DNA of 64,000 nt from a virus: positions 32,001 through 96,000 of the IMG/VR virus record IMGVR_UViG_3300026189_000002; one strand, written 5' to 3'. This document shows, piece after piece, positions 49,492 to 64,000 of this stretch; position 1 is the stretch's first letter, and the number at the start of each line of letters is the position of its first letter. The translations under genes and the position numbers were made by a program. The notes below the pieces were generated by a model. The model had not been told where the DNA came from, did not search any database, and saw nothing but the letters and a program-made list of their open reading frames with translations.

Positions 49492-50893
49492 AGATTTTTT
49501 GCCAGCTCGATCAAGCAATCCGCATTTTGGACAATACGGAAAATCTTTTCAAGAAAAAATATTTCAATCTCTTATTTCAGATAGAGAATGGGCTGCACAA
49601 ATGGTTGAGGTTATGGATCCAAACTTTTTTGATGTATCATACCTAGAATACTTAAGTGACAAGTTTTTTTCTTACTATAGAAAATATAAATGTTTTCCAA
49701 CTCTAGGATTGCTTGTAACGATTATAAAAGATTCTCTTTCGGAAAGAGACGATACTATATTAAGAGATCAGATCGTACAGTTTTTACACAGAATAAAATC
49801 TAGCCCAGATGTTAGTGATCTTGCTTTTGTTAAGGATAAGTCTTTAGATTTTTGCAGAAAGCAAGCATTCAAAGATGCTCTAGAGCAGGCAGTAGACTTG
49901 ATACAAACAGAGAAATTTGAACACGTATTAACTCTTATGAGGCACGCTGTTTCTGTAGGATTACCTAGCAGCACTGGACACGACTTTTTTGAAGATGCTG
50001 AAGCAAGATTTGTAAAAATAAATAGGCAGGTATGCCCAACTGGTCTTCCTAGGCTAGATGCAAAAGATGTGCTTCAGGGAGGTCTAGGTCGAGGCGAAAT
50101 AGGCGTAGTTACTGCAAACACTGGCGTAGGAAAGTCACATTGGCTTGTAGCTATGGGTGCTAACGCAATGAGAAACGGTAAAAATGTTTTACACTATACG
50201 TTTGAATTAACGGAGCACGCCGTAGGACTTAGGTATGATTCGAATCTTTGCAATATACCTTCTAATGAAGTGCAAGATAGAAAATCTAAAGTTATGAAGC
50301 ATTATGAAGATTCGGATTACGGAAGATTAGTAATTAAAGAATATCCTACAGGCTCAGCTACGGTTATAACGATTAGAAACCACGTAGAAAAACTAATGCT
50401 TAAAGGATTTAGGCCCTCTGTTATTATAATCGATTATGCAGATATTATGAGGTCTACTAGAAGTTATGACTCTTTAAGGCATGAACTAAAGCTAATTTAC
50501 GAAGAATTAAGAAATCTAGCTATGGACTTAAACATACCGATTTGGACAGCTTCTCAAGCAAACAGGGATTCTGCAAATTCTGATATTGTAGGACTAGAAA
50601 ATATGTCTGAAGCCTATGGAAAAGCTATGGTAGCAGATTTAGTAATATCGATATCTAGAAAAGCAACAGAAAAATCTACAGGATCAGGAAGATTGTTTGT
50701 AGCAAAAAATAGAGCAGGAAGAGACGGAATACTTTTTCCTATTCACATTGACACTTCCAGAAGTACTTTTGAAATATTAGATGAAAATTCGCTAACTCTA
50801 GAAGAAGCAGTAAATCAAAACCAAAATGATATGAAGATGCTGCTTAAGAAGAAGTGGAAACAGGTGGAGGCTGAAAATGGAAAAGCAGGTTAG
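49484..50893 (+). CDS. dnaB: Replicative DNA helicase (DnaB/gp41-like)
   Basis: Walker A ANTGVGKS, HYTFEL, IKEYP, IIDYAD, TASQANR and KNR.GRDG. Confidence 0.93.
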   Translation: MSEDFLPARSSNPHFGQYGKSFQEKIFQSLISDREWAAQMVEVMDPNFFDVSYLEYLSDKFFSYYRKYKCFPTLGLLVTIIKDSLSERDDTILRDQIVQFLHRIKSSPDVSDLAFVKDKSLDFCRKQAFKDALEQAVDLIQTEKFEHVLTLMRHAVSVGLPSSTGHDFFEDAEARFVKINRQVCPTGLPRLDAKDVLQGGLGRGEIGVVTANTGVGKSHWLVAMGANAMRNGKNVLHYTFELTEHAVGLRYDSNLCNIPSNEVQDRKSKVMKHYEDSDYGRLVIKEYPTGSATVITIRNHVEKLMLKGFRPSVIIIDYADIMRSTRSYDSLRHELKLIYEELRNLAMDLNIPIWTASQANRDSANSDIVGLENMSEAYGKAMVADLVISISRKATEKSTGSGRLFVAKNRAGRDGILFPIHIDTSRSTFEILDENSLTLEEAVNQNQNDMKMLLKKKWKQVEAENGKAG

Positions 50894-51365
50894 TTTTAGA
50901 TTTACTTCTGATTGTTTAGATGAATTAGTTTCTAGCAATCAAAGCCCAAGAGAAGTTGCAGATCAAATAATAGGCGTTGGCCACATAGATCTTTTTAATA
51001 TGTCTGAAGACACGACAATCTTAGGAAGAACAAAGTATGTAGCTTTCGGAGAAGAAAACTGCAGCACTATTAAAACCGGAATTAAATTAGCTTTGCCCGA
51101 AGATGTAATTGGAATACTTTCGGGAACTGAAGAGCTAAATAATACCGGAGTGATAGTAAGGCAAAATATATTTTTTCACGGAAATACAAACGAGGTTTTA
51201 GTTAGTTTTTTAAACTTAGGTGAAAAAGACGTTGTTTTAAAGAAAGGGTTTAGGGTTCCTGCAAAAATTATTTTTGTTTCTTCGGCTAAGTCTATAGACG
51301 TCGTTAGCGATTTAGAATACTTAGATAAGACAGCCGTCGATCAACAAAATTCGGAGAATCAATGA
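50877..51365 (+). CDS. dUTPase-fold protein lacking catalytic motifs
   Basis: [10 protein letters not shown]...G...GV.V......G..NEV.V...N.G...V.L.KG.R resembles a trimeric dUTPase, but RS, ID.DY and RG..GFGS are absent. Confidence 0.55.
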
Positions 51366-52327: not shown

Positions 52328-54681
52328 TGCACCAATACGTTATTAAGAGCAGTGGCGAAAAAGAAACGATAAAATTTGATAAAATAACTAGAAGAATAAG
52401 AAATCAGTGCAAAGGCTTAAACAGCAATTTTGTAAGCCCTTTAAATGTAACTAGGAAAGTTGCTGAATCTGTTATTGATGGAATAACAACAGAACAAATA
52501 GATTACATGATTTCTCAAGAGTGCGCAAGAATGGTCACGATACACCCCGACTATTCTTTGCTAGGAGCTAGAGTTTTAATAACTAGATGGCAAAAGTCTA
52601 TACCTCTTAGTTTCTCTGAAAATATCGGTATACTATATGATTATATAGATCCAACTACCGGAAAGCATGCTCCTTTAGTTAGTTCTGAAATACAAGAATT
52701 AGTTTCAAAACCTTCTTTCGCTAGAAAAATAGATCGATCTATTATACACGACAGAGACTATAATCTAGACTACTTTGGCTTGATGACTTTACAAAGAGGT
52801 TATTTAAAATCTCACAACGGGCAAATATTAGAGACCCCTCAGTTTATGTGGATGAGAGTTGCTCTAGGTATTCATGGAGAAGATATAGTTAGTGCGATAA
52901 GGTGTTATGAGAGTATGTCTCAAGGATACTATACTCATGCAACCCCAACCTTGTTTAATGCAGGAACATCTAGACAACAAATGTCGTCTTGCTTTTTGCA
53001 AGCTATGAAAAACGACTCTATAAAAGGGATATTCGAAACTTTCTTAGAAATGGCAGAAATATCAAAGCACGCCGGCGGAATTGGTGTTCACATACACGAT
53101 ATAAGGGCAAAGGGTTCTTACATAGCAGGGACTGGAGGAACTAGCAACGGAATAGTTCCCATGTTAAAAGTAATGAACGAAGAAGCTAGGTATGTAGATC
53201 AAGGCGGCGGGAAAAGAAAAGGGTCTTTTGCTGTTTATCTAGAGCCTTGGCATGCAGATATAGAGGATTTCTTGGAATTAAAGAAAAACCACGGAAAAGA
53301 AGAGTTGAGAGCAAGAGATCTTTTTTATGCCCTTTGGATACCAGACCTTTTTATGAAATCTGTAAAAGAAGATGGCGACTGGCATTTAATGTGCCCAAAA
53401 GAATGCCCAGGCCTTTCAGAAGTTTGGGGAGACGATTTTGAAAATCTGTATAATTCTTACGTAGAAAAAAACAAATTTAGGGAAAAATTAAAAGCTAGAG
53501 AACTTTGGGTAAAAATTATAAAAGCTCAAATAGAAACTGGAACTCCTTACATATTATACAAAGACTCTTGTAATAAGAAGTCTAATCAAAAAAACCTAGG
53601 GACTATAAAATCCAGCAATCTTTGCACAGAGATAATTCAGTACTCTAAGGATGGGGAGACTGCTGTATGTAATTTAGCGTCTATAGCAGTTAACAAGTTT
53701 ATATCTGGAAAAAATGTAGACTATGATAAAATAGCTTCTGCATCTTACGAAATAACTGAAAATCTAAATAAGATTATAGACAGAAACTATTATCCTACAG
53801 AACCAGCCGAAGTTTCTAATATGCTACACAGGCCTATCGGTATCGGAATACAAGGGCTAGCAGACCTTTTTGCTGCTCTTAAGCTGGATTTTGATTCTGA
53901 AAAATCTAGAGAAATAAACAAGAGAATATTTTCTTCTATATACTACGGAGCCCTTAAGGCTTCTTGTGATTTAGCTAAAAACTCTGAGCCTTATAGTTCT
54001 TTTGAAGGCAGCCCAGCGAGTGAAGGCATTTTGCAATTTGATTTATGGGGAATAGATCCGGACGAAAATTACAACTGGAAATCTTTAAAAAACAGAATTA
54101 AAAAGCACGGTTTAAAAAACTCGCTGCTAATAGCTCCCATGCCGACAGCTTCTACTAGCCAAATATTAGGAAACAACGAGTGCTTCGAGCCGTTTACTTC
54201 CAACATTTACGTTAGAAGAGTTTTATCCGGCGAGTTTATAATGGTAAACAAGCATTTAGTTAGAGACCTAATAGAAATTGGCATGTGGTCAGAAAATATA
54301 AAAGATGATATAATCAGGGGAAATGGGTCTATACAGCATATCAATTACATACCTGAAGAAATAAAATCTAGATACAGAACGGTTTGGGAGATGTCTATGA
54401 AATCAATTATAGAAATGGCCGCAGATAGAGCTCCATACATTTGTCAATCCCAGTCTATGAACTTATTTTTAGCAGAGCCCAACGTTGGAAAAGTTAACTC
54501 TATGCATTTTTACGCTTGGGAAAACGGCTTAAAAACAGGCATGTACTACTTGAGATCCAAACCAGCTAGTCAGTCAAAGAAAATTACGATAGAAGAAAAC
54601 AGCAACACTCAAGCAGAAGATCAGGAAGGCTTGATGTGTTCATTAGAAAACCCAGAATCCTGTGAAATGTGTAGTGGATAA
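52327..54681 (+). CDS. nrdA: Ribonucleotide reductase class Ia alpha subunit (ATP cone)
   Basis: N-terminal ATP cone, HATPTLFNAG, SSCF, SNLCTEI, CNLAS, APMPTAS, KTGMYYLR and C-terminal CxxC. Confidence 0.97.
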   Translation: MHQYVIKSSGEKETIKFDKITRRIRNQCKGLNSNFVSPLNVTRKVAESVIDGITTEQIDYMISQECARMVTIHPDYSLLGARVLITRWQKSIPLSFSENIGILYDYIDPTTGKHAPLVSSEIQELVSKPSFARKIDRSIIHDRDYNLDYFGLMTLQRGYLKSHNGQILETPQFMWMRVALGIHGEDIVSAIRCYESMSQGYYTHATPTLFNAGTSRQQMSSCFLQAMKNDSIKGIFETFLEMAEISKHAGGIGVHIHDIRAKGSYIAGTGGTSNGIVPMLKVMNEEARYVDQGGGKRKGSFAVYLEPWHADIEDFLELKKNHGKEELRARDLFYALWIPDLFMKSVKEDGDWHLMCPKECPGLSEVWGDDFENLYNSYVEKNKFREKLKARELWVKIIKAQIETGTPYILYKDSCNKKSNQKNLGTIKSSNLCTEIIQYSKDGETAVCNLASIAVNKFISGKNVDYDKIASASYEITENLNKIIDRNYYPTEPAEVSNMLHRPIGIGIQGLADLFAALKLDFDSEKSREINKRIFSSIYYGALKASCDLAKNSEPYSSFEGSPASEGILQFDLWGIDPDENYNWKSLKNRIKKHGLKNSLLIAPMPTASTSQILGNNECFEPFTSNIYVRRVLSGEFIMVNKHLVRDLIEIGMWSENIKDDIIRGNGSIQHINYIPEEIKSRYRTVWEMSMKSIIEMAADRAPYICQSQSMNLFLAEPNVGKVNSMHFYAWENGLKTGMYYLRSKPASQSKKITIEENSNTQAEDQEGLMCSLENPESCEMCSG

Positions 54682-55283
54682 TGAAGTACGTATCTAAAAT
54701 ATCGCCATTAATAAAAGAAGTAGAGCTAAGAAAAAACCCTATAATGATAAGGGTTAATAAGTTTGATGAAGATTCTGCAAGAAAATTCTCTGCTGAAATA
54801 GCTGCTGCTCACAATACGGGTCAAAAAATAATACCAATTGTTATTGACTCTTACGGCGGCCAAGTTTATAGCCTAATGTCTATGATTGGAGCAATACAAA
54901 ATTCAGAACTTCCTATAGCCACAATAGTAGAAGGAAAAGCGATGTCGTGCGGCGCTGTACTTTTTTCTTTTGGTGAAGAAGGAAGAAGATTTATGGATAA
55001 AAATGCAACGATTATGATACACGATGTTTCTTCTATGGATTTTGGAAAAGTAGAAGAACTAAAAGCAGGCGCAAAAGAGGCAGACAGATTAAATAAAATA
55101 ATATATAAAATGATGGCTCAAAACTGTGGTCATGATGATGACTACTTTATGGAAATAGTCGACAAGAAAAAGCATGCAGATTGGTTTATTGACGCTAAAG
55201 AAGCATCCAAGCACAACTTGGCCAACCACATAAGAATTCCCACTATTGATATTGACATATCGGTTAAGATTAGGCTAAAATGA
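54681..55283 (+). CDS. clpP: ClpP-like serine protease
   Basis: IDSYGG.V, AMSCG (Ser), MIHD (His) and DWF...EA.... Confidence 0.85.
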   Translation: MKYVSKISPLIKEVELRKNPIMIRVNKFDEDSARKFSAEIAAAHNTGQKIIPIVIDSYGGQVYSLMSMIGAIQNSELPIATIVEGKAMSCGAVLFSFGEEGRRFMDKNATIMIHDVSSMDFGKVEELKAGAKEADRLNKIIYKMMAQNCGHDDDYFMEIVDKKKHADWFIDAKEASKHNLANHIRIPTIDIDISVKIRLK

Positions 55284-55999
55284 AAATTGATCTGTATGAT
55301 GACGGAATAGGCTCTCTGGATTACGTTCAACACGTTGGTTCCGATCTAACAATAGTAAATTCCGCTAGAGTATCTTTTGGAAAAGAAAAAGAGGAAATAG
55401 ACGAAAAGGATAAAAAGCTAATAAGCTACCTTATTAAGCATAAGCATACTTCTACTCTAGAGCACAATATAATTACTTTTAGGTGCAAAGTTCCATTGTT
55501 TGTTAGGTCTCAGCATCACAGGCATAGAACTTGGTCTTACAATGAAATAAGCAGAAGGTATACTAGTATAGACATGCAGTTCTATGAGCCTAAAAGTTTC
55601 AGAACTCAGCACAAGTCAAATAGGCAATCAAGTAACGACGAATTAATTAATCCTGATATAAACGATTTTAATAATAGGCCATTACCTGTTTCTGCATATT
55701 ATGCAAATCAGGCAGTCAAGGATCACAATACCAGAAGTTTAGGATTATATAATAAGCTTCTGGAAAAGGGTATTTGTAGAGAGCAAGCCAGGGGAGTTTT
55801 GCCACAAAGTCTTTATACTGAGTATTATGCAACTTGCAATCTTAATAATCTATTAAAGTTTGTTTCTCTTAGAACGCATGAAGGAGCGCAATGGGAAATA
55901 AGGCAGTTGGCTTTAGCCATGTTAAAAGTTGCCAAAGACTTGTGGCCGATCACTATAGAATCTTATGAGAGTGTAAACGATGTCAAATTATCCGGTTAG
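55280..55999 (+). CDS. thyX: Flavin-dependent thymidylate synthase
   Basis: VNSARVS, HTSTLEH, RHR..SYNEISRRY, REQARGVLP and LR....AQWEIR. Confidence 0.96.
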   Translation: MKIDLYDDGIGSLDYVQHVGSDLTIVNSARVSFGKEKEEIDEKDKKLISYLIKHKHTSTLEHNIITFRCKVPLFVRSQHHRHRTWSYNEISRRYTSIDMQFYEPKSFRTQHKSNRQSSNDELINPDINDFNNRPLPVSAYYANQAVKDHNTRSLGLYNKLLEKGICREQARGVLPQSLYTEYYATCNLNNLLKFVSLRTHEGAQWEIRQLALAMLKVAKDLWPITIESYESVNDVKLSG

Positions 56000-57296: not shown

Positions 57297-60200
57297 ATGA
57301 AAAATAAACCGAACAGATTCTTTGGATTACACGCACATTCAGGGTTTAGTACTTTTGATGGTCTAGGGTATCCAAATGAGCACATGGACTTTTGTTTGCA
57401 AAACGGCTTAGATGGCTGGGCTTTAACAGACCACGGCCACATGAACGGTTTTGGTTATGCTCAATTACACGCAGACAAACTTAAGTCAAAAGGCGTAAAT
57501 TTTAAGTTTATTCCAGGTTGCGAAATGTATGTTCATCCATCTTTGGAAACTTGGCAAATAGATTATGATTTAAGGGCTGCAAGAAAACGCGGGGATTCTC
57601 AAGCAGAAAAAATTCTTTTAGAGCAAAGAGAGCAGATAATTACTCCTATTCACGCAGTTACAGATGGAGACGATGAGGTTTTAGACGTAGGTTTAGATGA
57701 GGCTTCTCTTACTGTTGAAAACGAAGAAGAAACAAAGTCAGCAAAGTTTTATGACCCTATTAAAAGAAGGCATCACTTAGTTGTTCTTCCAAAAACTAGT
57801 ATCGGATTACAAAGGCTTTTTTCTTTAGTATCTAAAGGCTATACTGATGGCTTCTATAGGTTTCCAAGAGTGGACTACAAAATGCTTAAAGAGGCGGCTT
57901 CTGGAGGCCATCTAATGGTTTCTACGGCATGCTTAGGCGGACCTCTTTCTTATGAAGTATTTAGGTTTTTGCAAAATATAGAATTTGATAATCTAAGCCA
58001 AGATTTGTTAAACGACGAGTCTATTTCTAAAAAGATAATTGAGTCAATATCTAACTCGTATGACGATTTATCTTTTGCTATGGGAAAAGATAATGTTTTC
58101 TTAGAGTTACAATTTAACAAACTGCCTGCGCAACATTTGGTCAATAGAGCGATAATAGAGTTTTCTAGAAAACACGGACTAACAGATAAGCTTGTAGTGA
58201 CTTGCGATTCTCATTATTCTAGTCCGGACCACTGGAAAGAAAGAGAGATATATAAAAAGCTAGGATGGCTAAACTACAAAGATTTTGATCCTTCTTCTCT
58301 ACCTTCATCTCGTGATGAATTAAAGTGTGAGCTTTATCCTAAAAACGCTGATCAAGTTTGGGATTCTTTTTTAGAAACCACAGAAGATATGGATTTTTAT
58401 GACGAACAAGAAATTATTTCTGCTATAGAGAGAACACACGACGTAGCTCATGACCTTATAGGAGAAATATCTCCAGATCGTTCAATGAAGCTACCTTCAT
58501 ATGTTATACCTAAAGACACTACGGCTGATCAAGCCCTAGTTGATATGTGCAAAAAAGCTTTAGTAGAAAAAGGGTTTAATAAAAATAGCGAGTATGTAGA
58601 AAGAACAATAAGCGAACTAAAGGTCATAAAGCAAAAAAAGTTTTCCGAATATTTTCTGACTATGAAGAAAATAATCGACGTTGCTTGGAAAAAAATGATT
58701 GTAGGCCCGGGCAGAGGTTCTGGCGCTGGTTCTTTAGTAAACTATCTTTTAGGCATAACTAACATCGACCCGATAAAATATGATTTGTTATTTGAAAGAT
58801 TTCTTGACCCACTGCGTACTGAGTATCCGGATATAGATACCGACGTCGCGGATAGAGATGAGTTAATCGCTCTACTTAGAGACGAGTTTGGAAAAAACAA
58901 CGTAGTACCCATATCAAACTATAATACCTTTAAGTTAAAGTCCCTGATAAAAGATGTGTCTAGATTTTACGGAATACCATTTCAAGAAGTCAATAAAGCT
59001 ATTTCTTCTCTAGAGAGAGACGTAAACAATGGAAGAAGAAGAGATAAAGTTTCAGACGCTACTTTTGATATTCAGCTTGAAGAGGCGCTAAAGTATTCTT
59101 CTAGTACAAGAGAATATCTAGAAAAATATCCAGAAATTTTAGAGCCTATTGGCGTTCTTTTTAAGCAAAACAAAAACCTAGGTAGGCACGCTGGGGGCGT
59201 TATAGTTTCTGAAAACATAGAAGACAGAATGCCTTTGATACTAGCCAAGGGAGAGCTACAAACTCCTTGGATAGAAGGCATGACCGCTAAGCACCTTGAA
59301 ACTTTTGGTTGGGTAAAATTTGACCTTTTAGGATTAGAGACTCTAAGAATAATAGAGAGCACGATTAAATTGATACTGATGAAGTCAGGTGTTAGTGATC
59401 CTACTTTTGAAGACATAAAGAAGTGGTATAATGATAATCTAGATCCTTCTACAATGGACTTAAGTGACCAAAGCGTCTATGAAAACATTTATCACTCAGG
59501 TAGGTTTGCTGGTGTATTTCAATGTACACAAAAAGGTGCTCAAAAGCTTTTTACAAACGCAAAGCCTAATTCCATTATTGATATAGCTACGCTAACGTCA
59601 ATATACAGGCCAGGACCTCTTAGCGCTAAAGTAGACAAGATATACATTGGAGCAAAAAAAGATCCATCAAGCGTCGATTATGGCCATCCTTTGATTAAAC
59701 AAGTTCTAGAGCCGACGTACGGCTGCATAGTTTTTCAGGAGCAAGCTATGCAACTGTGCCACGTCGTTGCAGGAATACCTAAGCTAGAATTAAATAAGAT
59801 AAGAAAAATGATGAAGCCTGGCGGAAACAGTGACGAAAACGTCGAGAAAGCTATGGCGCTAAAGGAAAGGTTTATTACAGGTGCTGTAGAAAATGGTGTA
59901 GAAAAAAACACTGCTGAACGCTTATATGAAAAAATACTTTACTTTTCCGGCTACGGTTTTAATGCTAGCCACGCTGTTTCTTATGCAATTATATCTTACT
60001 ATTGTGCCTGGTTTTTAACTCACTATGAAAAAGAATGGATAACTGCATACCTAGAGTCTTCTTCTGGCAACCCAAAGAAATTATCAAAGGCCATATCGGA
60101 AGCTAAAGGCTTAGGCTACAAAATATCTCGCATCGATATAAATCTTTCTGACAGAATGTGGACTTGCACAGACGACAAAGTTTTAGTACCTTCTTTCTCT

Positions 60201-60887
60201 TCATGTAAAGGTATAGGTGATGCGGCTGTACAAGAAATATTGTCGCAAAGGCCTTATACCAGCGTAGAAGATTTATTTTGGAATAAAGACGGCTCGTGGA
60301 AACATTCTAAGTTAAACAAAAGGGCGATATCAGTTTTATTGCAACTAAGAGCTTTTGACTCTATCGAATGGAAAAGTATGTTTAACTCGTATAAACACTT
60401 TCACGACGTTGTAATAGAGAATTGGAACGATATTAAAAAGAGCACTAAGAGAGACCCGGAAAAAGGCAAAAACTTTCTTAAGTCTTTTCTTTTAGAAAAC
60501 AACACCTCTACAGAATGGACAATGCAAGAGTTAGCAGAAAATAGCATGGCTTTGTTAGGAACTGTTAATGTAGAGATGATAATGCCGGATAATCTTCTAG
60601 ATAGGCTTTCTGAAAAAGGCGTGTATTCTATAGACGAGTGGTCTGGAGAAAATATTCACTGGATGCTATTGACCGATTACATCTCTAAAAAAACAAAGAA
60701 AAACAAGCCTTATTTTATACTAACTGGAATGGGAACTTCCGGAAAAAAGCATAAGATATTTTGCTGGAATCCTCCCGCTGATAAAAAACCTAGTAAGTAC
60801 AAAGTTTTTGCAGTACAATTGCAAAGCGGCGATTACGGTTTTTCTACAACTTGGAGCAAACTTATGGAACTACGTCAAGGTAGTTAA
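57297..60887 (+). CDS. dnaE: DNA polymerase III alpha subunit (family C)
   Basis: PHP motifs HAHS..S..DG, TDHG, GCE and DSHY, plus GPGRGS.AGSL, FERF, PDIDTD, HAGG, KFDLLGL, RPGP and YGFN.SH. Confidence 0.97.
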   Translation: MKNKPNRFFGLHAHSGFSTFDGLGYPNEHMDFCLQNGLDGWALTDHGHMNGFGYAQLHADKLKSKGVNFKFIPGCEMYVHPSLETWQIDYDLRAARKRGDSQAEKILLEQREQIITPIHAVTDGDDEVLDVGLDEASLTVENEEETKSAKFYDPIKRRHHLVVLPKTSIGLQRLFSLVSKGYTDGFYRFPRVDYKMLKEAASGGHLMVSTACLGGPLSYEVFRFLQNIEFDNLSQDLLNDESISKKIIESISNSYDDLSFAMGKDNVFLELQFNKLPAQHLVNRAIIEFSRKHGLTDKLVVTCDSHYSSPDHWKEREIYKKLGWLNYKDFDPSSLPSSRDELKCELYPKNADQVWDSFLETTEDMDFYDEQEIISAIERTHDVAHDLIGEISPDRSMKLPSYVIPKDTTADQALVDMCKKALVEKGFNKNSEYVERTISELKVIKQKKFSEYFLTMKKIIDVAWKKMIVGPGRGSGAGSLVNYLLGITNIDPIKYDLLFERFLDPLRTEYPDIDTDVADRDELIALLRDEFGKNNVVPISNYNTFKLKSLIKDVSRFYGIPFQEVNKAISSLERDVNNGRRRDKVSDATFDIQLEEALKYSSSTREYLEKYPEILEPIGVLFKQNKNLGRHAGGVIVSENIEDRMPLILAKGELQTPWIEGMTAKHLETFGWVKFDLLGLETLRIIESTIKLILMKSGVSDPTFEDIKKWYNDNLDPSTMDLSDQSVYENIYHSGRFAGVFQCTQKGAQKLFTNAKPNSIIDIATLTSIYRPGPLSAKVDKIYIGAKKDPSSVDYGHPLIKQVLEPTYGCIVFQEQAMQLCHVVAGIPKLELNKIRKMMKPGGNSDENVEKAMALKERFITGAVENGVEKNTAERLYEKILYFSGYGFNASHAVSYAIISYYCAWFLTHYEKEWITAYLESSSGNPKKLSKAISEAKGLGYKISRIDINLSDRMWTCTDDKVLVPSFSSCKGIGDAAVQEILSQRPYTSVEDLFWNKDGSWKHSKLNKRAISVLLQLRAFDSIEWKSMFNSYKHFHDVVIENWNDIKKSTKRDPEKGKNFLKSFLLENNTSTEWTMQELAENSMALLGTVNVEMIMPDNLLDRLSEKGVYSIDEWSGENIHWMLLTDYISKKTKKNKPYFILTGMGTSGKKHKIFCWNPPADKKPSKYKVFAVQLQSGDYGFSTTWSKLMELRQGS

Positions 60888-60897
60888 GGAGATTATT

Positions 60898-61719
60898 TTG
60901 AAAAAATTTAAAAGCTTGCAAGATGTTTTTCTAAACTACTGTAAAAACATCACAAAAGCGCCTTTAGTAAATAGCAGAGGTTCTACTCAAAGAGAACTGT
61001 TGTTTGAATCGTTTGAAATAACAGACCCTACTGCAATAGACATAAAAGTAGATGATAGAAAGTTTTCTACAAATTATGCCTTAACCGAATGGCTATGGTA
61101 TCTTTCTTGCGATAGAAACGTAAACAACATAGGTAAAATGGCAAAAATATGGAATCAGATATCTGACGAAAAAGGTGAAGTAGAGTCAAACTATGGAACC
61201 TACATAGCTCCTCAATGGTCTTGGATATTAGGAGAGTTAACTGACGATAGAGACTCTAGAAGAGCAACCATAGTAATAAACCAAGTTCATCATAAGTTTT
61301 CTAACGAAAAAGACTATCCTTGTACCCAGTACATACAATTCTTCATAAGAGAAAATAAGCTTCACATGGGTGTAAACATGAGATCCAACGATTTAATTTT
61401 TGGATTGTGTAACGACGTTTTTACATTTTGTCTTTTTCAACAGCTAATGTTAAATGATTTAAATGACAGGGGCGCAGAGTTGGAGCTAGGAAGTTATTTT
61501 CATCATGCTGGAAGTCTTCACGTTTACGAGAGGCATTTTAGTATGGTTTCTGGTATTAATTCAAAAAATCACAGTAGCGAAGAGTGCAATAAATTTGAGC
61601 TTTCTTCGGGAATAACAATGTCTGGGTGCCCAGTCTTGCCTCAAATGGATATGCCCAAGCAGGAAATGCAAAAATATACTAAGAGCGTAAAGGAGAAAAT
61701 ATTCCGTGAATATTCTTGA
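60898..61719 (+). CDS. Thymidylate synthase superfamily enzyme, probably a dCMP hydroxymethylase or other dCMP-modifying enzyme
   Basis: SNYG, DSRRA, YPCT, MRSNDLIFGLCND and SLHVYERH. AAGGAG SD favours a TTG start at 60898. Confidence 0.8.
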   Translation: MKKFKSLQDVFLNYCKNITKAPLVNSRGSTQRELLFESFEITDPTAIDIKVDDRKFSTNYALTEWLWYLSCDRNVNNIGKMAKIWNQISDEKGEVESNYGTYIAPQWSWILGELTDDRDSRRATIVINQVHHKFSNEKDYPCTQYIQFFIRENKLHMGVNMRSNDLIFGLCNDVFTFCLFQQLMLNDLNDRGAELELGSYFHHAGSLHVYERHFSMVSGINSKNHSSEECNKFELSSGITMSGCPVLPQMDMPKQEMQKYTKSVKEKIFREYS

Positions 61720-61972
61720 AGAAGCAAACTCAATAGTAAACCAGAGGTCAGAAGAAAAAGAAAGGCAGTATGGTCCTTTTAGCGAAGGAATGAAAAGGGC
61801 AGCTTCAATAGCTTCAGGCATGTCGGGAAAAGATGTTGATGCAAACGATATGTACATTGCTTTAGTAGCTTTAAAGCTTAGTCGTCAAAGCTATCATTTT
61901 AAAGATGATAATTTACTGGACGCTGTGGCCTATTTAGGAGCTTGGCACAATTTTATAAAGGATGAAAAATGA
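61706..61972 (+). CDS. DUF6378-like small helical protein (putative nucleotide pyrophosphohydrolase fold)
   Basis: IL.EA..IV...R...YG...LKLSR......D...D...Y pattern. AGGAG SD. Confidence 0.6.
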   Translation: MNILEEANSIVNQRSEEKERQYGPFSEGMKRAASIASGMSGKDVDANDMYIALVALKLSRQSYHFKDDNLLDAVAYLGAWHNFIKDEK

Positions 61973-62406
61973 AAATTTGTAAAACAAGAGAAGTAAAAAC
62001 GCCGAACAGAGGAACCCCGGAGTCTGCAGGTATAGACTTTTTTGTTCCTGACGATTTTGAAAAGTCAGAAATACAACCCGGCCAAGCTATATTTGTACCC
62101 AGCGGAATAAAAGCTGATGTTCCTAAGTCGCACGCCCTGATTGCTTTTAATAAAAGCGGAGTAGCCCTAAGGAAAAATTTAGCAGTAGGAGCTTGCGTAG
62201 TAGATGAAGATTACCAGGGAGAAATACACCTACATCTTTATAATTTTGGAACTGAACCTGCAACTGTATCGCCAGGAGAAAAGCTTGTTCAAATGGTGTT
62301 AGTACCCGTATCTTATGGAGACGTAGAAGTAGTAAACGAAGAATCTCTCTTTCAGCAAGAGTCCGAAAGAGGATCAGGCGGATTTGGCAGTACTGGAATT
62401 TTCTAA
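61969..62406 (+). CDS. dut: Trimeric dUTPase
   Basis: SAGIDF, KSG, VVDEDYQGE, Q and RGSGGFGSTG. Confidence 0.93.
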   Translation: MKICKTREVKTPNRGTPESAGIDFFVPDDFEKSEIQPGQAIFVPSGIKADVPKSHALIAFNKSGVALRKNLAVGACVVDEDYQGEIHLHLYNFGTEPATVSPGEKLVQMVLVPVSYGDVEVVNEESLFQQESERGSGGFGSTGIF

Positions 62407-63410
62407 TGTCTTTAGTTATTAGTCCAATAACAAATCACGCAAATAGAGACCACAGCCATAGAACGGGCTGGGGAAGAATGTGGGCTGCATCTTTAAATAG
62501 CAAGCTAGGCTTTAATAAAGACTGGACTAAAGAAGACAAGGTTTATTTAGAACACGGAATGGAATTTAACGCTAAGTCTAAGGGTGTAAACGTATTTCTA
62601 AAAGAACCAAAGTCGTGGGATAAACTAGCTGAAAAAGCTAAAATGTTATCTAACTTTAATGGAGAATTATACTCTTTAGATATAGACTGTCCGGACTATG
62701 GAGAAAGACTAAAGACAAGAGTTAGGCCTCATTCTACAGACAACTATAAAAATTTAGATTTTGATAAAATATCAGCAGTTTGTAAGAAAGCTAAAACAAT
62801 TAGGCAAAAAGATTTAAACAAAAAAGGCTTGGTTTTAGGCGATTCTCACTCTTTATCTGCCTGGAGAAAAGATGCGCATCTTTGTAGAAATGATGGACAG
62901 ACTTTAAATGGAGCAATCAATAAGGGTTTTGATTTATGGATAGACGATTTTAAAAAAACTAATTTAAATTTTATTAGAACCTATTTTGGAAATATTGATA
63001 TAAGGCATCACATCTGTAGAATATCAACAGGACAAAAAGAGCAGTTATCGACTGTAAGCAGTCTTGTTTCTAGATATTTTAATGAACTAAATAGAGTTAA
63101 AGAAAAATACAGCCTTGACTTAATAGAAGTTGTGGCTGTTTTGCCTATAGAAAATATATCTAGAAAGCTTCCTAAAACTGGATACTATAAAGGAAAACCA
63201 TATTGGGGATCTTGGGAGGAAAGAAACAGAGTGCATATTCATTTTAATGAAGAGTGCGAAAAACTTTGTTTAAAAAATGGTTTTAGTTTTATAAAATGGC
63301 CTAACAGTTTTTACAACGAAAAACTAGAAATGGGATTTGAAAACATGGAAAAGCCTAGGTCAGTTCATGTTAGTCCTAAAAAATATATGTGGGAGGCATT
63401 TAGTGACTAA
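62406..63410 (+). CDS. SGNH-hydrolase-like protein in the DNA-modification cluster
   Basis: VLGDSH, G.TL, FGNIDIRHH and terminal SVH. Confidence 0.55.
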   Translation: MSLVISPITNHANRDHSHRTGWGRMWAASLNSKLGFNKDWTKEDKVYLEHGMEFNAKSKGVNVFLKEPKSWDKLAEKAKMLSNFNGELYSLDIDCPDYGERLKTRVRPHSTDNYKNLDFDKISAVCKKAKTIRQKDLNKKGLVLGDSHSLSAWRKDAHLCRNDGQTLNGAINKGFDLWIDDFKKTNLNFIRTYFGNIDIRHHICRISTGQKEQLSTVSSLVSRYFNELNRVKEKYSLDLIEVVAVLPIENISRKLPKTGYYKGKPYWGSWEERNRVHIHFNEECEKLCLKNGFSFIKWPNSFYNEKLEMGFENMEKPRSVHVSPKKYMWEAFSD

Positions 63411-64000
63411 AATAACAACAAATTTATATTTTGAAGATTTTTTAAGATATTACGAACTTGCAAAAAAAGTTCAGAACGAATGCAACCTAGGCGGTAAACC
63501 TTACGTAGGTTCATGCGGTGACGACTTAATTGAGAATGTTACGATATACGATACTGTAGAAAGAAGGCACGCTGGCTTTCAAAATATGCTTCAGGATATA
63601 TGGCTAGGATCTAAGGCTCCAAAGTTTTATAAGTGGGACGAGGAACATAAAAAAAGAAATAAAACGTATGACAACCTTCATGAAAGATTTAGTAAATACG
63701 AGTGGTTGTTCTTATTCGTTCTTCACAGAATAACAGGATCAGGCGCTTCTTTTGAATCTGATCACGGATATAGAAACACAGCTATTCCTGATTTAGTTGG
63801 TCAAAAATCGTATTATATGATGATGAATACAGTAAGGTATTATCCAAAACCTATGTATACTAGCATAGGAAACCAAATACCTGCATTTCCAAAGCCTTCA
63901 ATGGGATATCAAACAGGAGGAAAATTTTGGTGGGGCCAGCATTCTATTAATTTGGTAGACGATGTTTGGAAATTTATAGATGGCATAAATTCGTCAGGAA
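63403..64000 (+). CDS. Putative DNA base hypermodification protein (aGPT-Pplase / amino acid:DNA transferase-like), 3'-truncated
   Basis: Not in the ORF track. GGGAGG SD plus GTG at 63403, open to the window end (MTKITTNLYFEDFLRYY...DDLIENVTIYDTVERRHAGF...HRITGSG...MYTSIGNQ). Family call rests on loose motif resemblance and context. Confidence 0.45.
   Translation, partial: MTKITTNLYFEDFLRYYELAKKVQNECNLGGKPYVGSCGDDLIENVTIYDTVERRHAGFQNMLQDIWLGSKAPKFYKWDEEHKKRNKTYDNLHERFSKYEWLFLFVLHRITGSGASFESDHGYRNTAIPDLVGQKSYYMMMNTVRYYPKPMYTSIGNQIPAFPKPSMGYQTGGKFWWGQHSINLVDDVWKFIDGINSSG

What the first reader, a model, noticed from the sequence alone, without database searches (positions are those of the whole stretch)
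60898..64000. Probable cytosine hypermodification cluster directly downstream of dnaE
Seen: the ThyA-fold enzyme reads RSNDLIFGLCND. The last Asp aligns with T4 dCMP hydroxymethylase D179 (RSNDVVFGFRND), not with the dUMP-specifying N177 of E. coli ThyA (RSCDVFLGLPFN). ThyX already supplies dTMP. Overlapping genes follow: DUF6378-like, dUTPase, an SGNH-like protein and a truncated ORF loosely resembling aGPT-Pplase/amino acid:DNA transferases, which are characterised on 5-hmU. Inference: modified dCMP is incorporated and further decorated by a non-glucosyl route, possibly giving an undescribed cytosine base.
Basis: partly seen in the sequence, partly recalled or inferred. Interest (0 to 1): 0.8.

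Follow-up and report, generated by a model that had tools for sequence, protein, structure and literature searches.

The report
Candidate phage cytosine hypermodification gene cluster
A marine phage carries a tight gene cluster, repeated in hundreds of other viral contigs, that very probably makes 5-hydroxymethylcytosine DNA and then decorates it by a non-sugar, amino-acid-type route that no paper I could find describes.

Summary
Directly after dnaE lies a translationally coupled operon. It starts with a ThyA-fold enzyme whose best solved relative is T4 dCMP hydroxymethylase. This enzyme carries all three published signature residues of a 5hm-dCMP synthase (L143D, D169 kept, N177D). Next come DUF6378, a dUTPase, and a two-domain protein with an SGNH-hydrolase domain (ORF4). 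ORF5 follows: a helical protein whose best solved match is the 5-PmdU glycinyltransferase (amino acid:DNA transferase) gp46 of phage PaMx11, with an invariant Glu-x3-Cys motif. Beyond the window end come a fold-type-II PLP enzyme, thymidine kinase, a DHH phosphoesterase and dCMP deaminase. ThyX is 5 kb upstream.

Comparative evidence is strong:
- At least 584 IMG/VR loci encode ORF5 relatives.
- In the 80 loci fetched, all 47 distinct neighbouring ThyA-fold genes have the cytosine-specifying Asp.
- ORF4, the PLP enzyme and the ThyA-fold gene sit within about 5 kb of ORF5 in most loci.
- Eight protein clusters are ORF4-ORF5 fusions.

ORF4 also occurs, fused to a helical domain, in T4-like Aeromonas phages that encode gene 42 but no glucosyltransferase.

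The final base and the role of the SGNH protein remain inferred. Other first-stage notes of this scan had already flagged this same stretch of the same genome.

The parts
55280..55999 (+). ThyX, flavin-dependent thymidylate synthase. It supplies dTMP, so the ThyA-fold gene is free for another role.
   Evidence: PF02511 E 1.2e-50; phrog_85 E 8e-67.
60898..61719 (+). ThyA-fold enzyme, predicted dCMP hydroxymethylase (5hm-dCMP synthase).
   Evidence: PF00303 E 9.7e-20. Best PDB hit is T4 dCMP hydroxymethylase, E 1.5e-25, with Cys148 and Asp179 aligned. Signature is DYPC (L143D), RSND (D169 kept) and final D (N177D), read against the criteria of PMC13326640.
61706..61972 (+). DUF6378 small helical protein. 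It may be the counterpart of the DUF1599 'nucleotide modification associated domain 1' found next to the ThyA-fold gene in relatives.
   Evidence: PF19905 E 1.1e-10. hhalign against the DUF1599 cluster gives E 0.0034 over 89 columns, which is only weak. DUF1599 is present in 39 of 80 related loci.
61969..62406 (+). Trimeric dUTPase.
   Evidence: PF00692 E 3.7e-23; TIGR00576 105.6 bits, above its cut-off of 102.55.
62406..63410 (+). ORF4, a two-domain protein. Residues 1 to about 130 form an unassigned alpha/beta domain. Residues 133-331 form an SGNH-hydrolase fold with invariant Ser147 (GDSH) and His321.
   Evidence: No Pfam or NCBIfam hit. phrog_13881 E 1e-57. AF2 model pLDDT 92. VIA-align top match 2hsj, Z 15.1, 169 aa, rmsd 2.7, followed by dozens of GDSL esterases and O-acetyltransferases. 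Invariant residues. Fused to ORF5-like domains in 8 representative clusters.
63403..64000 (+). ORF5, cut by the window end. The full gene runs to window-equivalent 64449 (349 aa). It is a divergent amino acid:DNA transferase-like (aGPT-Pplase/HhH superfamily) protein with invariant Glu294-x3-Cys298.
   Evidence: No Pfam or PHROG hit. AF2 model pLDDT 91.9. BFVD top hit is named 'Amino acid:DNA transferase domain-containing protein', E 2.6e-23, TM 0.90. PDB top match is 8z2m PaMx11 gp46, Z 9.8, followed by HhH glycosylases. The best hhalign local alignment puts E294/C298/P309 on gp46 E243/C247/P258, with P 0.012.

Best explanation
The cluster is a pathway for a hypermodified cytosine. It is built on the same logic as the known thymidine hypermodification pathways, but it starts from dCMP.

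Step 1 (well supported): the ThyA-fold enzyme converts dCMP to 5-hydroxymethyl-dCMP. ThyX, dCMP deaminase, dUTPase and thymidine kinase keep dTTP supply separate. After phosphorylation, 5hm-dCTP is incorporated by the phage replisome.

Step 2 (inferred from fold, motif and context): ORF5 flips the 5hmC out of DNA. Its conserved Cys298 attacks C6, assisted by Glu294. A leaving group departs from the 5-methylene, and a nucleophile, most likely an amino acid, is added. PaMx11 gp46, M6 gp51 and ViI gp247 do this on 5-phosphomethyl-dU.

Step 3 (inferred): the fold-type-II PLP enzyme directly downstream processes the appended amino acid. Decarboxylation, as by ViI gp226, is most likely. A beta-replacement or beta-elimination is possible.

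Step 4 (least certain): the SGNH-fold protein ORF4 works hand in hand with ORF5, and the two are one polypeptide in several relatives. It occupies the place that the 5-hmdU DNA kinase holds in thymidine pathways. I propose that it prepares the hydroxymethyl group, for example by O-acylation, or delivers or unmasks the donor.

The product would be a non-glycosyl, amine-bearing 5-substituted cytosine that shields the DNA from host nucleases.
For: The first enzyme is cytosine-specific and of the hydroxymethylase type.
- T4 dCMP hydroxymethylase is the best solved relative, with Cys148 and Asp179 aligned.
- L143D, D169 kept and N177D match the published signature.
- 47 of 47 distinct ThyA-fold genes next to ORF5 relatives have Asp and keep D169.
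- MetaGPA independently tied this residue to cytosine-modified contigs (PMC8670742).

ORF5 resembles an amino acid:DNA transferase.
- The confident model's top PDB match is the 5-PmdU glycinyltransferase, Z 9.8 over 210 aa.
- BFVD hits are named AADT, Pplase1 and 5-hmdU DNA kinase helical domain.
- The invariant E-x3-C...P spacing is identical to gp46 E243-C247...P258. Cys247 is the proposed catalytic nucleophile (PMC11472151), and Cys and Glu are essential in M6 gp51 and ViI gp247 (PMC8989533).

The genes form a conserved module.
- Among 27 loci with at least 5 kb on both sides of ORF5, ORF4 is present in 26, the PLP enzyme in 23, the ThyA-fold gene in 22 and all three in 20. The median span is 4.7 kb, and gene order varies.
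- Eight 50%-identity clusters are ORF4-ORF5 fusions.
- At least 584 viral loci encode ORF5 relatives.

The PLP enzyme is of the right class.
- It matches phrog_7093 at E 4.5e-38 and has a weak PALP hit.
- It has an invariant Lys57.
- ViI gp226 was modelled on a fold-II template.

Cultured phages give a further link.
- T4-like Aeromonas phages carry ORF4 fused to a helical domain with a weak PF18723 hit.
- The 44RR gene 42 product has the 5hmC-type signature.
- These phages lack glucosyltransferases (PMC2993671).
Against: - There are no chemical data of any kind.
- ORF5 is not detected by the Pfam AADT or HMUDK_hel models.
- Profile-profile comparison with true AADTs is not significant: probability 3.6%, P 0.012. 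A competing local alignment places gp46 Cys247 on a non-conserved Cys212.
- Z 9.8 for an all-helical protein is within the range the tool's own notes call possibly generic.
- No kinase or other obvious activating enzyme, no acyl donor and no dNMP kinase were found. Only about 34% of the genome is in hand.
- The SGNH domain lacks the canonical DxxH Asp.
- Nine related loci have ORF5 without the ThyA-fold gene, the PLP enzyme or ORF4 nearby.
- A ThyA-fold enzyme with this signature could still have an unexpected product, as the 5-hydroxy-dCMP synthases showed.
Confidence: 0.6

Rival explanations
1. The phage DNA carries only plain 5-hydroxymethylcytosine, or 5hmC modified by genes elsewhere in the genome. 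ORF4, ORF5 and the PLP enzyme would then do something else that is linked to modified DNA. One possibility is an HhH-type glycosylase or repair function that removes deaminated or unmodified bases, together with unrelated metabolic enzymes.
For: - After gp46, ORF5's next structural neighbours are true DNA glycosylases and the queuine-salvage DUF2419 enzymes.
- Some relatives sit next to a bona fide HhH-GPD protein and lack the other module genes.
- Sequence-level membership in the AADT family is not shown.
Against: - An invariant Glu-x3-Cys motif is the mark of C6-attacking pyrimidine-modifying enzymes, not of HhH glycosylases.
- The conservation of the four-gene module, and the fusion of ORF5 to an SGNH enzyme, are hard to explain by repair.
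- The PLP enzyme is the class used in known hypermodification pathways.
Confidence: 0.15
2. The decoration happens before replication, on free nucleotides. ORF4, ORF5 and the PLP enzyme would convert 5hm-dCMP or 5hm-dCTP into a modified dNTP, which the polymerase then incorporates.
For: - The only characterised non-sugar 5hmC-modifying enzyme, the carbamoyltransferase, also acts on 5hm-dCTP (PMC8670742).
- The module sits among nucleotide-metabolism genes: dUTPase, thymidine kinase, dCMP deaminase and a DHH phosphoesterase.
- DUF2419, which acts on a free nucleoside or nucleotide, is the second-best structural match.
Against: - The closest solved structure is a DNA-bound base-flipping enzyme (PMC11472151).
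- All characterised AADTs act on polymeric DNA (PMC8989533).
Confidence: 0.15
3. The pathway targets thymidine after all. The ThyA-fold enzyme would make 5hm-dUMP or dTMP, and ORF5 would be an ordinary thymidine-type transferase.
For: - All characterised AADTs work on 5hmU derivatives.
- dCMP deaminase and dUTPase both supply dUMP.
Against: - Asp occupies the N177 position here and in 47 of 47 relatives.
- The best solved relatives are the dCMP and CMP hydroxymethylases.
- ThyX explains why dUMP supply is needed.
- No 5-hmdU DNA kinase or PF18724/PF18723 match is found in the contig.
Confidence: 0.05

Closest known systems
Thymidine hypermodification pathways of phages ViI, M6, PaMx11, SP10 and PhiW-14: dUMP hydroxymethylase, 5-hmdU DNA kinase, amino acid:DNA transferase (aGPT-Pplase clade 2) and a PLP decarboxylase.
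   Same: - A ThyA-fold hydroxymethylase sits next to an HhH-like helical enzyme with a Glu-x3-Cys motif and a fold-II PLP enzyme.
- Many relatives carry a paralogous pair of the helical enzyme, as the T pathways do.
- The partner enzyme is fused to the helical enzyme in some genomes, as in the SP10 kinase fusion.
   Different: - The base is cytosine: Asp at the specificity position in every case.
- No P-loop 5-hmdU DNA kinase is present. An SGNH-fold two-domain protein takes its place and its fusion position.
- The helical enzyme is too divergent for the Pfam AADT model.
- No radical SAM, FAD or acetyltransferase tailoring genes are present in this contig.
T-even phage 5hmC pathway: gp42 dCMP hydroxymethylase, gp56, gp1, cd, tk, then alpha- and beta-glucosyltransferases.
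   Same: - The first enzyme is the same, about 35% similar to gp42 and with the same catalytic and specificity residues.
- The supporting genes are the same (dCMP deaminase, thymidine kinase, dUTPase-fold proteins), and dTMP supply is separate.
   Different: - No glucosyltransferase is present in the cluster.
- ThyX replaces Td.
- Decoration is predicted to be of the amino-acid type rather than a sugar.
5-hydroxymethylcytosine carbamoyltransferase clusters found by MetaGPA (PMC8670742).
   Same: - It is a non-sugar decoration of 5hmC encoded next to an Asp-type ThyA-fold gene, dCMP deaminase and, in relatives here, a MazG-like PRA-PH gene.
- It is found in uncultured phages.
   Different: The enzymes are entirely different: a TobZ-like carbamoyltransferase there, against the SGNH, AADT-like and PLP proteins here.
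5-hydroxycytosine glycosylation pathways of RB69, DLP3 and RL38J1 (PMC13326640).
   Same: A ThyA-fold enzyme with N177D and an acidic L143 position makes a non-canonical dCMP, which is decorated after replication.
   Different: Those enzymes carry D169N, whereas this one keeps Asp169. Their decoration is arabinose or hexoses added by glycosyltransferases.

Membership tests
T4-type dCMP hydroxymethylase (5hm-dCMP synthase, thymidylate synthase superfamily) | Thymidylate synthase fold or Pfam PF00303 match, with a hydroxymethylase as the closest solved relative. | tested here: met
   PF00303 E 9.7e-20. 1b49 T4 dCMP hydroxymethylase E 1.5e-25 and MilA E 3e-19, against about 1e-10 for ThyA.
T4-type dCMP hydroxymethylase (5hm-dCMP synthase, thymidylate synthase superfamily) | Catalytic Cys (E. 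coli C146, T4 C148). | tested here: met
   DYPCTQ aligns with T4 DFMCTN.
T4-type dCMP hydroxymethylase (5hm-dCMP synthase, thymidylate synthase superfamily) | Asp at the E. coli N177 / T4 D179 position, which gives dCMP specificity. | tested here: met
   RSNDLIFGLCND lies on RSNDVVFGFRND. The criterion comes from PMC13326640 and PMC8670742.
T4-type dCMP hydroxymethylase (5hm-dCMP synthase, thymidylate synthase superfamily) | An acidic residue at the E. coli L143 position (hydroxymethyl rather than methyl product), and Asp169 kept (not a 5-hydroxy-dCMP synthase). | tested here: met
   Asp lies three residues before the catalytic Cys (DYPC), and the motif RSND keeps Asp169. Criteria.
T4-type dCMP hydroxymethylase (5hm-dCMP synthase, thymidylate synthase superfamily) | Enzymatic conversion of dCMP and methylene-THF to 5hm-dCMP. 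| not testable with these tools
   Needs an enzyme assay or the in vivo nucleoside assay.
Amino acid:DNA transferase (AADT, aGPT-Pplase clade 2, Pfam PF18724) | Match to the family HMM. | tested here: not met
   No PF18724 hit for ORF5, for 30 relatives or in the six-frame contig at E up to 10. hhalign against an AADT alignment gives probability 3.6%.
Amino acid:DNA transferase (AADT, aGPT-Pplase clade 2, Pfam PF18724) | Two-helical-bundle HhH-like fold of gp46/PUGT. | tested here: met
   8z2m_A is the top hit of 48,161 chains: Z 9.8, 210 aa, rmsd 4.2, model residues 12-313 on chain residues 8-268. BFVD hits are named AADT and Pplase1.
Amino acid:DNA transferase (AADT, aGPT-Pplase clade 2, Pfam PF18724) | A conserved catalytic Cys with a Glu four residues upstream (gp46 E243/C247). 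| tested here: inconclusive
   E294 and C298 are invariant in 30 sequences and at least 90% conserved in 45. They are also present in the paralogue family. The best hhalign local alignment and the ends of the structural alignment range place them on E243/C247, but P is only 0.012 and no residue-level superposition was available.
Amino acid:DNA transferase (AADT, aGPT-Pplase clade 2, Pfam PF18724) | Works with a 5-hmdU DNA kinase (P-loop plus PF18723 helical domain). | tested here: not met
   No PF18723 match in the contig. No conserved kinase among the neighbours in 80 loci. The contig covers only about 34% of the genome.
SGNH/GDSL hydrolase superfamily (ORF4 residues 133-331) | SGNH fold. | tested here: met
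   Z 15.1 to 2hsj, and more than 40 further GDSL/SGNH enzymes at Z 10-14.
SGNH/GDSL hydrolase superfamily (ORF4 residues 133-331) | Block I GDS Ser, block III Asn and block V His. | tested here: met
   G145-D146-S147-H148, G195-N196-I197-D198 and H321 are invariant in 30 sequences. The canonical Asp of DxxH is absent; E315 is the only invariant acid nearby.
SGNH/GDSL hydrolase superfamily (ORF4 residues 133-331) | Match to the Pfam Lipase_GDSL models. | tested here: not met
   No Pfam hit for ORF4. One fusion relative reaches only E 0.066.
Fold-type II PLP-dependent enzymes (PALP, PF00291) | Family HMM match and a Schiff-base Lys. | tested here: inconclusive
   PF00291 scores 19.3 bits, below the cut-off of 35. 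phrog_7093 E 4.5e-38. Lys57 in the VVRDD..GxK motif and the S184-T185-G186 loop are invariant. PDB profile hits are weak, to cysteine synthases at E 0.016. Protein-atlas neighbours include a cluster named 'Trp synthase beta-like PLP enzyme'.

The most novel reading that the evidence does not exclude
A large and so far unrecognised class of aquatic phages replaces cytosine with an amino-acid-derived 5-substituted cytosine, for example an aminoalkoxymethyl- or aminoalkylaminomethyl-cytosine. The class includes jumbo phages, pelagimyophage-like T4 relatives and, in a fused variant, cultured Aeromonas T4-like phages. The base would be made by a new clade of Cys-dependent DNA transferases that needs no DNA kinase. 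Instead, an SGNH-fold enzyme activates the hydroxymethyl group or delivers the donor. That chemistry has not been seen before on DNA.
Probability: 0.4. Interest if true: 0.9.

Novelty: new variant of a known kind. Interest (0 to 1): 0.8.

Why it matters
All amino-acid or polyamine hypermodifications characterised so far sit on thymine. Cytosine is known to be glycosylated, carbamoylated or carboxymethylated. A cytosine counterpart of the AADT pathway would add a new base to the catalogue and a new clade of DNA-modifying enzymes.

Such enzymes would be useful as 5hmC-specific labelling tools for epigenome sequencing. An SGNH enzyme working on DNA would probably be a new activation chemistry.

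The module is abundant, with at least 584 IMG/VR loci. It occurs in T4-like phages of marine bacteria, where the ThyA-fold gene has been read as a second thymidylate synthase (PMC7029224). Its presence therefore bears on restriction evasion, on sequencing bias and on interpreting marine viromes.

Cultured Aeromonas phages (44RR2.8t, 31, Aes012, phiAS4 and others) carry the related fused gene. This makes the long-standing question of how gene-42 phages without glucosyltransferases protect their DNA directly testable.

Tried and rejected
- **Near-identical phage DNA.** A megablast of the region against 50,697 phage records found nothing.
- **ORF5 against cultured phages.** tblastn found nothing.
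- **Sequence searches of ORF5 and its profile against the PDB.** Only a chance colicin hit at E 0.22.
- **Foldseek of ORF5 against the PDB.** Nothing significant, although gp46 chains appeared at probability about 0.5.
- **Profile-profile comparisons.** I compared the ORF5 family with gp46 alone, with a 26-sequence AADT alignment, with ViI gp247, and after merging with the paralogue family. All were non-significant. I do not claim family membership by sequence.
- **The C-terminal half of Aeromonas ORF233c against ORF5.** No similarity by BLASTP, hhalign or HMM. There is only a weak PF18723 hit.
- **PLP family against ViI gp226.** Only a C-terminal motif, probability 12%.
- **N-terminal domain of ORF4.** No named neighbour in the protein atlas, and the structural list is dominated by the SGNH domain.
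- **Walker-A scan of the contig.** No small kinase candidate.
- **Conserved neighbours of relatives.** The DUF1599, MazG-like, ORF5-paralogue, GT-A-like and UDG-like genes have no homologue in this 113-kb contig.
I used the search for related loci instead.
- **5-hydroxy-dCMP synthase.** Rejected, because D169 is kept.
- **dCMP methylase.** Rejected, because the L143 position is Asp. A weak DHFR-like gene downstream keeps a small doubt alive.

Full report
**Where the window lies.** The window is bases 32001-96000 of a 113,062-bp IMG/VR virus record. CheckV estimates the record at 34% complete, so the genome is roughly 330 kb. I fetched the remaining sequence. L002 is contig 92001-112000, and a window coordinate equals the L002 coordinate plus 60000. 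All genes discussed here are on the + strand.

**The observation.** After dnaE (57297-60887) comes a run of genes that overlap by 1 to 14 nt.
- The ThyA-fold gene starts at TTG 60898 behind an AAGGAG and ends at 61719.
- It is followed by DUF6378 (61706-61972), a dUTPase (61969-62406) and ORF4 (62406-63410).
- ORF5 starts at GTG 63403, with GGGAGG 6 nt upstream. It overlaps the ORF4 stop codon by 8 nt and runs to window-equivalent 64449.
- Beyond the window lie a PLP enzyme (64459-65337), thymidine kinase (65394-65954), a DHH/DHHA1 phosphoesterase (65951-66820) and dCMP deaminase (66823-67248).
- ThyX is at 55280-55999.

**The ThyA-fold enzyme.** It matches PF00303 (E 9.7e-20). Among solved structures its best match is T4 dCMP hydroxymethylase (E 1.5e-25), then the CMP hydroxymethylase MilA (3e-19). 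Thymidylate synthases come only at 1e-12 and weaker. The printed alignment puts DYPC on T4 DFMC (Cys148) and RSNDLIFGLCND on RSNDVVFGFRND (Asp179).

A 2026 paper gives three diagnostic positions in E. coli numbering (PMC13326640):
- N177D confers dCMP specificity.
- An acidic residue at L143 goes with hydroxymethylated rather than methylated products.
- D169N marks the newly found 5-hydroxy-dCMP synthases.

The window's enzyme has Asp at the L143 position, keeps Asp169 and has Asp at N177. It therefore fits the 5hm-dCMP synthase type. It fits neither a methylase nor a 5-hydroxylase.

**ORF5.** Pfam, PHROGs and NCBIfam find nothing. The protein belongs to a family of at least 280 clusters at 90% identity, and 187 representatives at 50% identity. 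All are unannotated and mostly come from marine metagenomes.

An AlphaFold model built on 30 relatives is confident (pLDDT 91.9) and all-helical. Its structural neighbours are as follows:
- Against predicted viral structures, the top hit (E 2.6e-23, TM 0.90, 40% identity) is named 'Amino acid:DNA transferase domain-containing protein'. Weaker hits are the SP10 and PhiW-14 5-hmdU DNA kinase helical domains and 'Pplase1' proteins.
- Against 48,161 PDB representatives, the top match is 8z2m, the 5-PmdU glycinyltransferase gp46 of PaMx11 (Z 9.8, 210 residues). DUF2419 and a series of HhH DNA glycosylases follow.

The family has an invariant Glu294-x3-Cys298-Asp299 and a near-invariant Asn306-Tyr307-x-Pro309. 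gp46 reads E243-x3-C247 ... N254-G-H-Y257-P258. Cys247 is its proposed C6-attacking nucleophile (PMC11472151). In M6 gp51 and ViI gp247, both the Cys and the nearby Glu are required for activity (PMC8989533).

A local hhalign run with alternative alignments gives exactly this pairing as its best-scoring alignment: E294/C298/P309 on E243/C247/P258. The P value is only 0.012. A second alignment, to a non-conserved Cys212, scores almost as well. The ends of the structural alignment (model 313 on chain 268) fit the first pairing.

I conclude that ORF5 works like an AADT. It belongs to the same fold superfamily, but it is a separate clade that fails the Pfam family test.

**ORF4.** It has no Pfam hit, matches phrog_13881 at E 1e-57, and belongs to a family of at least 654 clusters. 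The model is confident (pLDDT 92). Residues 133-331 are a clear SGNH hydrolase fold: Z 15.1 to 2hsj, and dozens of GDSL esterases, sugar O-acetyl esterases and the O-acetyltransferase PatB at Z 10-14. GDSH (Ser147), GNID (Asn196) and His321 are invariant. The canonical Asp of DxxH is missing. The first 130 or so residues form a separate alpha/beta domain with its own invariant residues and no assigned fold.

**The PLP enzyme.** It matches phrog_7093 ('threonine dehydratase', E 4.5e-38) and, weakly, PALP. An alignment of 21 relatives shows an invariant Lys57 in a VVRDD..GxK motif and an S-T-G loop. The profile weakly hits cysteine synthases. The decarboxylase ViI gp226 of the thymidine pathway was likewise modelled on a fold-II template (PMC8989533). 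Direct similarity to gp226 is only a C-terminal motif.

**Comparative genomics.** A scan of IMG/VR with the ORF5 alignment found at least 584 loci, and I analysed the best 80. Using the window's proteins as phmmer queries against six-frame ORFs:
- ORF4 relatives are present in 63 loci, PLP relatives in 60, ThyA-fold genes in 53 and dCMP deaminase in 34. Many of the loci are cut short.
- Among the 27 loci with at least 5 kb on both sides of ORF5, ORF4 is present in 26, the PLP enzyme in 23, the ThyA-fold gene in 22 and all three in 20. The four genes span a median of 4.7 kb.
- Gene order differs between groups, so synteny alone does not explain the association.

All 47 distinct ThyA-fold proteins in these loci have Asp at the N177 position and keep Asp169, and most have Asp three residues before the catalytic Cys.

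Eight representative proteins of 560-790 aa are fusions of an ORF4-like N-terminal part to an ORF5-like C-terminal part. For seven of them hhalign probability is about 100% for both halves; the truncated 560-aa one scores 97% for its partial ORF5 half. This is the same kind of evidence that links the 5-hmdU DNA kinase to aGPT-Pplases.

Most of the 40%-identity loci are T4-like. They carry gp45 clamp, gp44 clamp loader, UvsX, a DnaB-like helicase and peptide deformylase. [quoted passage not shown] These relatives often add the following genes, none of which has a homologue in this contig:
- DUF1599, 'nucleotide modification associated domain 1'.
- A MazG-like PRA-PH protein.
- A paralogue of ORF5 that keeps the E-x3-C motif (hhalign 90.8%, E 1.2e-6).
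- A protein with DxD motifs that looks like a GT-A glycosyltransferase.

**Cultured phages.** Among cultured phages, ORF4 relatives occur in 38 Aeromonas records and 2 Stenotrophomonas records of T4-like phages, and partially in Tenacibaculum phages. In Aeromonas phage 44RR2.8t the relative is the N-terminal 334 aa of the 795-aa ORF233c. Its C-terminal part gives a weak hit to the 5-hmdU DNA kinase helical domain (E 0.0036). The 44RR gene 42 product has the 5hmC-type signature. Phages 44RR, 31 and 25 are known to encode genes 42 and 56 but no glucosyltransferase, and the state of their hm-dCMP is unknown (PMC2993671).

**Mechanism.** Shown or well supported:
- A dCMP-specific hydroxymethylase-type enzyme is present.
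- dTMP supply is separate.
- A four-gene module is conserved.
- ORF4 and ORF5 are coupled, physically or functionally.
- ORF5 has an AADT-like fold with a Cys/Glu motif.
- ORF4 has an apparently active SGNH site.
- The PLP enzyme is of fold type II.

Inferred:
- ORF5 substitutes the 5-methylene of 5hmC in DNA with an amino acid.
- The PLP enzyme then decarboxylates it or otherwise processes it.
- Because no radical-SAM isomerase is present, a side-chain-linked amino acid with a free alpha-amine (as for serine in ViI) is the more likely intermediate.

Most uncertain is ORF4. It stands where the kinase stands in thymidine pathways. It may acylate the hydroxymethyl group to create a leaving group, or it may provide or unmask the donor.

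**Literature.** I searched the held library for combinations of AADT or aGPT-Pplase, 5hmC, hypermodification, SGNH, dCMP hydroxymethylase and marine phages. I found no description of an AADT-type pathway on cytosine. Known non-sugar cytosine decorations use a carbamoyltransferase (PMC8670742) or a carboxymethyl handle (PMC12783734, judged from its abstract only). AADTs are described only as thymidine-hypermodification machinery (PMC13229309).

**Earlier notes of this scan.** First-stage notes on the same genome had already flagged this operon, the specificity residue and the 'SGNH in the kinase slot' idea. They are unchecked AI notes on the same stretch, and I tested their claims independently here.

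**Verdict.** The cluster is best classed as a new variant of a known kind of system. It is abundant in nature and experimentally tractable through cultured relatives.

Noticed in passing
window 50877-51365 (+): A second, divergent dUTPase-fold protein (PF00692, E 1.9e-7) lies between a helicase and nrdB, in addition to the canonical dUTPase at 61969. In a phage that replaces C, a dUTPase-fold protein could be the dCTPase that excludes dCTP.
   Followed up: partly
L002:8265-8870 (window-equivalent 68265-68870, beyond the window): A 201-aa ORF hits a trimethoprim-resistant DHFR model weakly (NF000126, E 2.5e-4). A DHFR is not needed by ThyX or by a hydroxymethylase, so its role is unclear. It keeps a small doubt alive about a methylase-type activity.
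   Followed up: no
L002:7588-8268 and L002:11585-11944 (beyond the window): An Fe/Mn superoxide dismutase-like gene (Sod_Fe_C E 2.4e-12; NF041312 E 3e-21) and a pterin-4a-carbinolamine dehydratase gene (E 1.3e-13) lie downstream of the nucleotide-metabolism block.
   Followed up: no
window 54681-55283 (+): A ClpP-family protease gene (PF00574, E 5.2e-24; PHROG head maturation protease) lies immediately upstream of ThyX and overlaps it.
   Followed up: no
Related loci, e.g. L086:2166-3182, L031:4727-5695, L069:8206-8592, L029:4993-5424: Many relatives carry extra conserved genes beside the module. These are a paralogue of ORF5 that keeps the E-x3-C motif (37 loci), a protein with DxD motifs that looks like a GT-A glycosyltransferase (25 loci), DUF1599 (39 loci) and a MazG-like PRA-PH (34 loci). 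None has a homologue in this contig. Those phages may add a sugar as well.
   Followed up: partly
L088:9095-9970, L025:8095-8874 and seven further loci: In nine related loci an HhH-GPD superfamily protein (PF00730) sits directly upstream of ORF5 or ORF4. Most of these loci lack the ThyA-fold and PLP genes within 6 kb.
   Followed up: partly
L094:1177-1854 (Tenacibaculum phage PTm5): This cultured phage has only the SGNH half of ORF4 (ORF-050). Its thymidylate synthase homologue reads EYPC and RSNN...D, which is the D169N signature of 5-hydroxy-dCMP synthases.
   Followed up: partly
L089 (Erythrobacter phage vB_EliS_R6L gp1) and L090:6986-7696 (Microcystis phage Mae-JY30): The only cultured-phage relatives of the PLP enzyme (29-32% identity) are annotated 'DNA modification methylase'. 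One of them lies next to two ParB/sulfiredoxin genes. This suggests the PLP fold is reused in other DNA-modification systems.
   Followed up: no
L006:4402-5925 (Aeromonas phage 44RR2.8t): A sodium:solute symporter-like gene lies directly upstream of the 795-aa ORF4-like fusion gene in a T4-like phage. It may import the donor molecule.
   Followed up: no
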